DNA from: Octopus vulgaris
Taxonomy: Eukaryota
DNA: 64,000 bases
Reading direction: 5' to 3'
Assembly (NCBI GenBank): GCA_951406725.2
Contig: OX597830.1
Location: forward strand, 31,992,001-32,056,000
Positions 6,040-56,472 of the stretch are shown here, in pieces; positions within the stretch are counted from its first letter, which is position 1, and each line of letters opens with the position of its first letter. Both the position numbers and the translations under genes were made by a program. The notes under the pieces were generated by a model, which saw only the letters and a program-made list of their open reading frames with translations, did not search any database and had not been told where the DNA came from.

Positions 6040-6425
6040 AGAGGGGGAGGGGGAGGAGGACGAGGAGGAGGAGGCGGAAGAGGAGCACAAGGAGGTGGAG
6101 GAGTATGAAGATGTGGAGGGTAAGGGGTGGAGGAGATAAACTGCAAGAAGGAGGAGGTGGGGTGATAGAGGAGGAGGAAGAGAAAAAGTGCATGAATATG
6201 GAGGAGGAGGAGGAGGAGGAGGTGGAAGAGGAGGAAGGAGGAGAAGGAAGAAAAGAGGAGGAGGAAGAAAGAGGAGGAGAAGGAAGAAAGAGGAGAAGGA
6301 AGAAAGGGGAGGAGAAGGAAGAAAAGACAAAAGAGGAGAAGAAAGAAAAGAAGAAAGAGGAGGAGAAAGAAGAAGAGGAGAAGGATGAAAGAGGAGGAGA
6401 AGGAAGAAAGAGGAGGAGAAGGAAC
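6040..6425. repeat. Polypurine (GAG/GAA)n tract
   Basis: Nearly pure A/G on the + strand. Confidence 0.9.
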
Positions 6426-19812: not shown

Positions 19813-20319
19813 TGGCAAAAAATCCTTATAAACTGTTACTCAGAGTTTCATGTTACTCTTCATTAGACAACTGTGAGTCTACTAAAATAAAAAGCATATT
19901 GCTCAGCCTTTGGTCTTCAAATACTATTTTTGCACTTTGATTTGCATTTATGCACTTAACCCATGTTAGCATGGAAAGCGGACGTTAAACGATGATGATG
20001 ATATAGATTGGTAGATAGATAGATAGACAGATAGATATATGCATATATATATATATACATATATACATATATGTATGTTTATATAATTATACGTAAAGCT
20101 GAGGTCCAAGGATCCAGGTGTATAAAGTTAGTAAGTCATTAGACTGAATAATAAGCCTATTACAGGAACAGTTGTGGTTTATTAACATAGAAGGTTTGTA
20201 AACTTTTCCAATATCAAAGTTTGATAAGCTATATCTATATATATATATATAATAAATTAACAGAACAAAATAAAAAATCCAAGGCTGTGAATAGTTTCCA
20301 AAACATTTATAAAGAGAAG

Positions 20320-20367
20320 GTCTTACAGCTGTTTCCAGGATATTTTATATATCCCTTCATCAGAGAC
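20320..20367 (-). ncRNA. Minimal type I hammerhead ribozyme, canonical core
   Basis: Reverse complement GTCT-CTGATGA-A-GGGATAT-ATAAA-ATATCCT-G-GAAAC-AGCT-GTA-AGAC; palindromic stem III, GUA cleavage triplet. Confidence 0.8.
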
Positions 20368-20941
20368 AGTGCGAGAAAATGTTTAAGTAATAGTTATTAT
20401 AGAGAAGATACGAAATACAGAGTGAAGTGGAGGAATGAAAACAGACGTGAGATGCATAAGGATATTATATCTGCAGTTCCGTTATTTACACAGAATGGTA
20501 TATGTAAGTTTCTTATATATATATATATAAATTTAATTAGAGGTCGTGTTAACCTCATAAGTCCACTAAAATGAATTCACAAATGCACATAATATAGCAT
20601 CCATAGGTACATCTTTTTCCCTCTGATGATATTATTCTCATGTCACATAAATATAAGTTTAATGTTTATTGAGTATTGATGGAAACAGGTGTAAGTGAAG
20701 ATAACCAATTTGCTGTTAATAATAAACCATTATTGACTTCCGAATCTCCATTTCCTTCTTCTTTTAAATATATATCTTCTTCTTCCCTACCAAGAATTCA
20801 CAACGACCTCAAACCCACAAGAGTAAACAAGAGAGACAGAGACAGGCAGAAACAAGGAAAATGCCACTTGTATTTGAACACTATACAAATATTCTTTTAA
20901 AAACTTTTATTTTTATTTTTCTAAATTTAATTATTTAATTG

Positions 20942-20983
20942 TTACAGTTGAAAAAGTCTCAATGACTGAAACCGGTACTGAAA
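20942..20983 (+). ncRNA. Minimal type I hammerhead, U3-A8 core variant
   Basis: TTACAG-TTGAAAA-AGTC-TCAAT-GACT-GAAA-CCG-GTA-CTGAAA; stem I 5/6, stem II 4/4, palindrome ACCGGT. Confidence 0.7.
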
Positions 20984-21045
20984 TGTTTTTTATAAAATTA
21001 TTTTAGCATTTTCTATCTTGACTTTTTTTCCATATATATACATAC

Positions 21046-21094
<49 letters not shown>

Positions 21095-36974: not shown

Positions 36975-37560
36975 GACATACTAAGTTTATGACACTCATT
37001 AACAATATCGTCAAATTTACAAAGAGGTACAGTAAGGGTAAATTGCTCTTTATAGATTTAATTAGTTATAAACTAAATAGCATCGATATAGATGGATATT
37101 AAAGACTAATAGACTCGAAGCAATATTTACTTTTTACTTAATGCCATCCAAAACATGTGAGAATCGGTATTTCATTCAATTTAGGCAAAAGAACGTATAC
37201 CATTACATCAAACCTGAACACCTGAAAAGAACTAGGATATATTTTGGCTGAAAAACGTTATCTACAATCGCAAATTAATGATAGAATAAAGAGAACAAAG
37301 ACAATTGATGTTAGTGATTTAAAACACTAAAAGAGCAAACTAAAAACAAGTATTCTACCTTAAATTTCAGTTCACATGAAAAACCTGATTGTAATTCATT
37401 AAATTCTACCATTATTAAAATGTGATCCAAAAAAAGAAGAATTTTAGAAAATACATCTATAATTAAAAGCAAAAAAAAAAAAAGAATCAAATCTAAAATC
37501 ATGAATGGAGCTATTAACAAATATTAAAATACTTACCAAAAGATCAATCACGATAGTCAA
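36975..37560 (+). pseudogene. Penelope-like element RT C-terminal remnant
   Basis: Manual translation KFMTLINNIVKFT.RYSKGKLLFIDL..DSKQYLLFT*CHPKHVRIGISFNLGKRTYTI..ELGYILAEKRY; fits PLE I.FT.E...LPFLD / YL.F.S.HP.H motifs. Confidence 0.7.
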
Positions 37561-38147
37561 AATATACGGAAGATGAAATTGTAAAATTCATATTCATATA
37601 TTTAAAGTTTCAGAGCTACTGACAAAATTTTTAGATAAAATAAAATTTTTCAAGCTTATCTAAGAACTTAAAAGCTTAATTTGAATCATGATATGCTATG
37701 GATCTGGCATGAATTACATTAGCCAAAGTAGGTATAACACTTAGAAAATGGATGACTATTTACTAACAACAAATACGTGGCTCACACAAGTAGGAAGATA
37801 TCAGCCAACGTTCAGGCTGATTTTATGAAAGATCAGTAGCTGACTTTTAAACTATTCTCAATATACTCACGTGTATAAAATAAATCAGAATAACAAAGAA
37901 TTAACAAAGTATTTTTATTGATAATTAATTATGTGACATTTTTGATTTAATTATCAATATTTCTGAAAATATATTTCATACACTCTTTTTACAATATTTA
38001 AAGTACATTAAATTATCTTCCTTGTCAGTGTATTTATAAAACTTAGGTTACTAACATATATAGAGTAATCTCACATTCATACAAACGCATATATATATAT
38101 GCACTCATGTACCTACAGTTAGAAAAAATATAAAAGTACCAATAGGT

Positions 38148-56251: not shown

Positions 56252-56291
56252 CCAGAGTTCTTTCGTCACACTTCTGTGACCTCATCAGTGG
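56252..56291 (-). ncRNA. Minimal type I hammerhead ribozyme, canonical core
   Basis: Reverse complement CCA-CTGATGA-G-GTCAC-AGAAGT-GTGAC-GAAA-GAAC-TC-TGG; lies between 47 bp inverted repeats 56149-56195 / 56388-56434. Confidence 0.75.
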
Positions 56292-56472
56292 TCCTTTGTT
56301 TTCTTCTTTCTTATTTGTGTGGCTCTCCTTACTAACGATCAAAATAAAGCTGAAGCAAATAAACACCAAATATATAGTGCGTGTATTTTTATTGGCTAAA
56401 ATGGCAACATGACCATTCCTAAATACAACAATATATATATTTATATAATACACACATATATACATACATACA

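What the first reader, a model, noticed from the sequence alone, without database searches (positions are those of the whole stretch)
20942..20983. Compact U3-A8 hammerhead with palindromic ACCGGT stem III
Seen: TTACAG-TTGAAAA-AGTC/TCAAT/GACT-GAAA-CCG-GTA-CTGAAA. All elements are correctly spaced, stem II is perfect, the triplet is GUA, and the only core change is the compensatory U3-A8. Inference: the best single test case for an active non-canonical ribozyme.
Basis: partly seen in the sequence, partly recalled or inferred. Interest (0 to 1): 0.75.

Follow-up and report, generated by a model that had tools for sequence, protein, structure and literature searches.

The report
Penelope retrotransposon's minimal hammerhead ribozyme
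This 42-base motif is the hammerhead-shaped end of a broken jumping-gene (Penelope-like) copy found hundreds of times in this genome; it likely cuts RNA only slowly and in pairs, and related families swap one core base pair through all four possible pairings, which suggests that the cutting fold is kept by selection.

Summary
The motif is real and lies where stated. [quoted passage not shown] The window holds a lone, 5'-truncated piece of about 260 nt in a (TA)n tract. The genome has 324 exact copies, and 1,732 of a sister form carried by intact RT + GIY-YIG elements.

The U3-A8 core and palindromic stem III are already published for PLE hammerheads (PMC4209133, same UUGAAAA core), so the motif is a new member of a known kind. 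It is not the best test case: stem I has 3 bp, pair 10.1-11.1 is A-U, U3 is predicted to pair with A17, and no same-family partner lies in the window.

The interest lies in the relatives. Related PLE families keep the ACCGGU palindrome while pair 3-8 reads U-A, A-U or G-C (C-G in a retrozyme), with compensatory stems; I found no report of natural A3-U8 or G3-C8 but could not read two key papers. These PLEs also have two ORFs overlapping at a conserved U UUU UUA site. Cleavage is untested.

The parts
20775..21031 (+). 5'-truncated 3' end (pLTR part) of a Penelope-like retroelement
   Evidence: 40 scored copies at 95-100% identity (self included) out of 2035 first-look candidates; shared 3' end and variable 5' start; copy L017/L031 runs upstream into GIY-YIG and RT coding sequence; 82% identical to the pLTR of intact element L060
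20942..20947 (+). Stem I 5' arm (3 contiguous pairs, A.A mismatch, 2 more pairs)
   Evidence: sequence; pairs 2.1-1.1 Watson-Crick in 16 of 16 family representatives
20948..20954 (+). Core U3 U4 G5 A6 A7 A8 A9 (U3-A8 variant)
   Evidence: sequence; same core in S. mansoni(4) PLE hammerhead, supplement of PMC4209133
20955..20967 (+). Stem II, 4 bp with 5-nt loop; closing pair A10.1-U11.1
   Evidence: formed in monomer and dimer folds; sister family has compensatory G10.1-C11.1
20968..20977 (+). G12 A13 A14, palindrome ACCGGT (15.1 to 16.1), A17; predicted cut 3' of 20977
   Evidence: sequence; intermolecular 6-bp stem III in the dimer fold of the 42-mer; cut site inferred from hammerhead numbering
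20978..20983 (+). Stem I 3' arm
   Evidence: sequence
21032..21089 (.). (TA)n/(TACA)n tract at the insertion site; a short AT run also lies at the 5' junction (20768-20775)
   Evidence: 29 of 30 copies end in such a tract

Best explanation
The motif is the minimal type I hammerhead at the 3' end of a Penelope-like retroelement of likely Neptune/Nematis type, and this window copy is a lone truncated relic; in the parent element two such motifs would likely pair through the ACCGGU palindrome and cut slowly after A17. [quoted passage not shown] Inferred: in a transcript spanning both pLTRs the two motifs form a double hammerhead and release a unit of about 4.4 kb that starts 123 nt before the ORF1 ATG. 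Because the copies run about 54 nt past the cut site, the reverse-transcribed template was uncut or re-ligated (circular) RNA, primed at an internal AU repeat by a nicked (TA)n target. Inferred: the window variant is a weak cutter (A10.1-U11.1, 3-bp stem I, U3-A17 trap), and this copy would need a partner in trans.
For: PLE context: RVT_1 E 2.7e-8 and GIY-YIG in L060 ORF2, GIY-YIG above Pfam cut-off in L017, DKG, GxKF, CX4CxxC linker and two Cys inside GIY-YIG. Of 20 loci chosen for long ORFs, 4 have the intact motif in direct repeat at both ends, and 8 have an inverted pLTR. Cut-to-cut distance 4412 nt and 123 nt to the ATG; 120 nt in family C. The dimer fold of the 42-mer keeps stem II inside each copy and pairs the palindrome between copies, 7.3 kcal/mol below two monomers; monomeric stem III probability is 0.000. 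Covariation across 16 hand-picked representatives: 3-8 Watson-Crick 16 of 16 (UA 6, AU 6, GC 3, CG 1), 2.1-1.1 16 of 16, 10.1-11.1 15 of 16. Unselected check: 93 of the first 100 rows have a Watson-Crick 3-8 pair (88 A-U, 5 G-C; 7 mismatched; counted by eye). Literature: PLE min-HHRs cleave weakly and only as dimers (PMC4209133); U3-A8 active in vitro (PMC3088659).
Against: No cleavage, RNA end or circle was observed. The motif is not significantly more conserved than its flanks between subfamilies A and B (40/44 vs 182/227, Fisher p 0.13), nor than its 3' flank among 29 copies. The dimer MFE pairs U3 with A17; the strict double-hammerhead fold is 6 kcal/mol above it. With 7 more nt of flank on each side another duplex dominates (stem III probability 0.07). 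Genomic copies do not end at the cut site. The representatives are related and were picked by me, with the register chosen for the best stems, so the permutation p-values overstate independence. Only 17 of 30 G3-C8 loci have a contiguous stem I of 4 bp or more, and several have a 1-bp stem II.
Confidence: 0.7

Rival explanations
1. The fold is kept, but in this U3/A17 lineage it works mainly uncut: as a dimerisation or RT/ORF1-binding signal that places the template for priming at (TA)n, with little or no cleavage.
For: A17 is fixed with U3 in all but 30 of about 3,481 motifs despite a predicted U3-A17 pair, the analogue of the proposed G17-C3 trap (PMC3884650). Copies extend past the cut site. 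PMC4209133 leaves non-cleavage functions open.
Against: The 3-8 pair forms in the active conformation and covaries through four pair types. Other families avoid a 3-17 clash: 0 of 88 G3-C8 motifs have C17. G17 ribozymes keep some activity.
Confidence: 0.2
2. A dead relic: the hammerhead was functional in an ancestor and subfamily A (the window's) amplified without it working.
For: The one subfamily-A coding stretch translated in full (L031) has stops and frameshifts; all 20 long-ORF loci belong to the sister form. Naiad PLEs spread without hammerheads (PMC8557442).
Against: Subfamily A fixed a compensatory A10.1-U11.1 pair rather than a mismatch, and 324 copies are identical. I did not search specifically for intact subfamily-A ORFs.
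Confidence: 0.09
3. A chance match in AT-rich DNA.
For: Rfam no hit; fold z-score -0.89.
Against: 0.06 expected per window; same position and compensatory stems in families whose proteins are only about 42% (ORF1) and 56% (ORF2) identical.
Confidence: 0.01

Closest known systems
Minimal type I hammerheads (min-HHR) of metazoan Penelope-like elements, especially S. mansoni(4)/Cercyon U3-A8 (Cervera and de la Pena 2014, PMC4209133)
   Same: Located in the pLTR; type I; short stem I; palindromic stem III; U3-A8 with the identical UUGAAAA core; mostly solo truncated copies; predicted dimer action.
   Different: 4-bp stem II with no extra nucleotide after A9 (published metazoan forms have longer stem II and an extra nt); A10.1-U11.1; 6-nt ACCGGU palindrome; A17 (the S. 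mansoni(4) row has U17). Sister families here have A3-U8 and G3-C8, which my term search of that supplement did not show.
Neptune/Nematis C-terminal EN+ PLEs (Craig et al. 2021, PMC8557442)
   Same: RT then CX2-5CxxC linker then GIY-YIG with CCHH-type Cys/His; DKG motif; (TA)n targets; pLTRs, inverted 5' copies, optional tail of 30-40 nt.
   Different: Two ORFs: a 411-aa ORF1 without Pfam hit overlapping the RT-EN ORF in the -1 frame at a T TTT TTA heptamer; canonical EN+ PLEs are described as single-ORF. The Fig. 1 legend allows a frameshifted ORF1 in some PLE type, which I could not see.
Non-LTR retrozymes (Cervera and de la Pena 2020, PMC7229834)
   Same: Type I hammerhead with palindromic stem III; a 359-nt retrozyme in this genome has the same ACCGGU palindrome and (TA)n ends.
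   Different: The window motif belongs to a coding PLE, not a short tandem unit; the retrozyme has canonical C3-G8 and C17.

Membership tests
Hammerhead ribozyme (type I) | Core N3 UGA N N8 A / GAAA / UH with a 3-8 Watson-Crick pair | tested here: met
Hammerhead ribozyme (type I) | Stems I and II flank the core and covary | tested here: met
   stem I only 3 contiguous bp in this copy
Hammerhead ribozyme (type I) | G10.1-C11.1 closing pair (usual, not obligatory) | tested here: not met
   A-U here; G-C in the sister form and in 14 of 16 representatives; PMC3088659 lists even U-U as active
Hammerhead ribozyme (type I) | Site-specific self-cleavage after nt 17 | not testable with these tools
   needs an in vitro assay; only contigs were served
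Hammerhead ribozyme (type I) | Match to an Rfam hammerhead model | tested here: not met
   no hammerhead among 7 hits up to E 10; from my own knowledge the models expect a full stem III
PLE min-HHR | Palindromic stem III that forms only between two copies | tested here: met
   predicted only: monomer P 0.000, dimer P about 0.5 for the 42-mer, 0.07 with longer flanks
PLE min-HHR | Position in the pLTR of a PLE | tested here: met
EN+ Penelope-like element | RT with C-terminal GIY-YIG nuclease | tested here: met
   in sister and same-subfamily copies; absent from the truncated window copy
EN+ Penelope-like element | pLTR tandems, inverted 5' copies, optional tail | tested here: met
   tail in 4 of 30 copies
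EN+ Penelope-like element | Single ORF | tested here: not met
   two ORFs in -1 overlap in 16 of 18 loci that keep the junction; the other 2 have one more T and read through
Neptune (vs Nematis) clade | CX2-5CxxC linker before GIY-YIG | tested here: met
   shared by Neptune and Nematis
Neptune (vs Nematis) clade | RT phylogeny with reference PLEs | not tested
   no reference PLE proteins were fetched

The most novel reading that the evidence does not exclude
One PLE clade in this genome is a natural compensatory series: its dimer-type hammerheads use U3-A8, A3-U8 and G3-C8 (C3-G8 in a co-resident retrozyme) around one shared ACCGGU palindrome, the first natural set with all four pairs and evidence that slow PLE hammerheads are selected for the active fold. 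The same clade is a two-ORF, endonuclease-bearing PLE that makes its RT by -1 frameshifting at an HIV-like U UUU UUA site, and it mobilises the 359-nt retrozyme, perhaps pairing with it through the shared palindrome.
Probability: 0.35. Interest if true: 0.68.

Novelty: new member of a known kind. Interest (0 to 1): 0.42.

Why it matters
What hammerheads do in endonuclease-bearing PLEs is still open (PMC8557442), because they cut poorly in vitro. The window motif alone adds little. The clade around it gives a ready natural test set: four different 3-8 pairs, different nt 17, compensatory stems, and young intact elements with tandem pLTRs. It also offers two side leads: a conserved slippery site between two ORFs, and a PLE-retrozyme junction that bears on which element moves retrozymes (open in PMC7229834).

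Tried and rejected
Rfam: whole window gave only microsatellite-driven miRNA hits among the 150 rows shown of 563; local scan gave no hammerhead.

Motif-versus-flank conservation was not significant between A and B (p 0.13) and uninformative among 29 top-scoring copies, which are selected for similarity.

Expression: no RNA holder listed. Contigs of four guessed-RNA runs cover the sister element and three cross the ORF1/ORF2 junction with no splice joint, but they are not shown to be RNA and cannot show ends. Contigs from four runs did not bridge the window locus, so no empty site was seen.

ORF1: no Pfam family at cut-off, no Atlas hit, 3 homologues at 46-50%, no longer fused form among 1956 candidates (weak evidence). 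No strong hairpin follows the slippery site in family B (about 0 kcal/mol) and only weak ones in C, D, E, which counts against a classic stimulated frameshift; the same letters could be a 3' splice acceptor.

My first descriptor missed the motifs of families C, D and E because it required a 3-bp stem II and C3/U3. For the 16-row table I left out loci with mismatched 3-8 (L144 G.U; L149 plus strand and L150 G.A).

Earlier findings of the scan: nothing. Lunse et al. 2017 (RNA Biol) and Arkhipova et al. 2017 (MBE) could not be read; either may already report these core variants or the frameshift. One of three supplement files of PMC4209133 was not searchable, and figures are not held.

Full report
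Observation. Stem I has three contiguous pairs and then an A.A mismatch, and stem II closes with A10.1-U11.1. A descriptor of this strictness is expected 0.06 times per shuffled window. Rfam does not recognise it and the monomer fold is not unusual.

It is a dispersed repeat. A search with 20860-21030 gave 2035 first-look candidates; the 40 scored are 95-100% identical, the window itself included. The exact 42-mer occurs 324 times, reversed control 0. The 30 loci fetched share a fixed 3' end and start at variable points; 29 of 30 end in an AT or AC microsatellite and 4 of 30 carry a further tail. In the window the piece spans about 20775-21031 between AT runs and has no second copy in 64 kb.

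It is the end of a Penelope-like element. Copy L017 runs upstream into a GIY-YIG nuclease preceded by a Cys linker, and its wider locus has an inverted copy with RT. That protein finds 17,181 first-look candidates; many of the 150 scored lie in open frames of 784 aa. Of 20 loci chosen for long frames, 4 have the intact motif in direct repeat at both ends and 8 have an inverted pLTR. ORF2 has RVT_1 and GIY-YIG with DKG, GxKF and CX4CxxC motifs, which points to Neptune or Nematis (PMC8557442, passages). These intact elements carry a sister hammerhead, 1,732 exact copies, which differs by a compensatory G10.1-C11.1 pair and two loop bases. A relaxed pattern finds 3,481 motifs; the 100 listed are all U3-A8, and only 30 have C17 or U17.

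How it likely works. Monomeric stem III does not form (P 0.000). In the predicted dimer of the 42-mer the palindromes pair between copies and stem II stays within each, 7.3 kcal/mol below two monomers. In L060 the two cut sites are 4412 nt apart and the first is 123 nt before the ORF1 ATG; family C has 120 nt. I infer a double hammerhead across the two pLTRs. Since copies extend about 54 nt beyond nt 17, the template was uncut or re-ligated RNA primed at an internal AU repeat; this matches the circular model proposed in PMC4209133 (main text parts 1-2 of 4 read) but does not prove it.

Why this copy is a poor test case. U3 is complementary to A17: the pair has P 0.72 in the monomer and is in the dimer MFE, and the strict double hammerhead lies 6 kcal/mol higher. 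The analogous G17-C3 pair is the proposed trap in minimal hammerheads, and a G3-C8 variant is reported to prefer G17 over C17 (PMC3884650, passages). With 7 nt more flank on each side a different duplex wins.

Cross-family evidence for the fold. Families whose ORF1 is about 42% and ORF2 about 56% identical to L060 keep GAAACCGGT in the pLTR with their own stems. A pattern that excludes U3 finds 1,323 motifs, control 3; by eye 88 of the first 100 rows are A3-U8, 5 are G3-C8 and 7 are mismatched. A G3-C8 pattern finds 88, control 0, with A17 in 86, U17 in 2 and C17 in none. 15 of 30 of those loci have same-strand PLE ORF2 sequence upstream, and 17 of 30 have a contiguous stem I of 4 bp or more; 11 of 25 A3-U8 family E loci have a PLE protein hit. 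Over 16 hand-picked representatives pair 3-8 is Watson-Crick in 16, 2.1-1.1 in 16, 2.2-1.2 in 14, 10.1-11.1 in 15; the control 3-7 in 9. The rows are related, I chose them and I dropped three mismatched ones, so this is support, not a probability. Against: the motif is not significantly more conserved than its flanks between A and B (p 0.13).

Comparison with print. Natural U3-A8 is reported in PMC3088659 (passages) and for about 1,300 S. mansoni PLE hammerheads in PMC4209133, whose supplement has a PLE-linked row with the same UUGAAAA core (term searches of file 2). PLE hammerheads with short palindromic stem III acting as slow dimers are reviewed in PMC6765202 and PMC6155905 (passages). Searches for A3-U8 or G3-C8 and for PLE core variants since 2015 returned no natural example; searches for hammerhead with Penelope terms gave the papers above. 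Lunse et al. 2017 could not be read, so absence from print is not established. That any Watson-Crick pair works at 3-8 in vitro is recalled (Przybilski and Hammann 2007), not read.

Two-ORF layout. A 411-aa ORF1 overlaps the RT ORF in the -1 frame; the first Met of the RT ORF lies behind the conserved GxKF motif. The overlap holds T TTT TTA in 16 of 18 loci that keep the junction, and the other two have one more T and read through. Families C and D keep the heptamer in the same phase and E has the same letters; two of three outside homologues end in the same FL-x7-DT pattern. The heptamer equals the HIV-1 slippery site (recalled). No strong downstream hairpin was found, and a splice acceptor is the rival. 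Canonical EN+ PLEs are described as single-ORF (PMC8557442 abstract, PMC6431247 passage), though a figure legend allows a frameshifted ORF1 in some PLE type; frameshift searches found nothing more specific, and PMC3846280 (passages) does not address it.

Verdict. The finding is real and is a new member of a known kind. The claim of best active test case is not supported. The relatives are the part worth following. Interest 0.42.

Noticed in passing
L074-L083 (G000:C1:20000777-20006043 and C1:44910838-44914226): 359-nt tandem retrozyme-like family with a canonical C3-G8, C17 hammerhead and the same ACCGGT palindrome; arrays end at (TA)n and show head-to-head inversion like the PLE.
   Followed up: partly
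L111:4200-4780: Family D PLE ORF2 and start of its 3' UTR (90% to L099) joined directly to a retrozyme piece (86-89%) that ends at the retrozyme's usual (TA)n end: a template switch or a later insertion; one case only.
   Followed up: partly
L060:4347-4410; L095, L105, L107: ORF1/ORF2 -1 overlap with conserved T TTT TTA G in four PLE families; frameshift site or splice acceptor.
   Followed up: partly
L139-L188, L114-L138: PLE-linked hammerheads with A3-U8 (majority of 1,323 pattern hits) and G3-C8 (88 hits) cores.
   Followed up: yes
window 20325-20363, minus strand: Hammerhead-like motif with C3-G8 core and ACAGCTGT palindrome in another dispersed repeat (about 20230-20528) just left of the insertion.
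   Followed up: partly
window 20623-20700, plus strand: CTGATGA and GAAACAGGTGT about 55 nt apart in a second repeat; perhaps a decayed motif of the same kind.
   Followed up: no
window 56252-56294, minus strand: C3-G8 hammerhead-like motif with an extra G before a 5-6 bp stem II and non-palindromic stem III; a similar stretch lies in L025.
   Followed up: no
window 36983-37732: Decayed PLE RT/EN fragment, 35% identical to L060 ORF2.
   Followed up: no
L140:2785-2870; loose ends at window 20942: A further subfamily shares the hammerhead and 3' end from 20942 onward but has a different sequence upstream.
   Followed up: no
L108 minus strand near 6388; L031:8160-8210: U3-A8 hammerhead with an 8-nt palindrome AACCGGTT and U17 (family F; coding part not traced).
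   Followed up: partly
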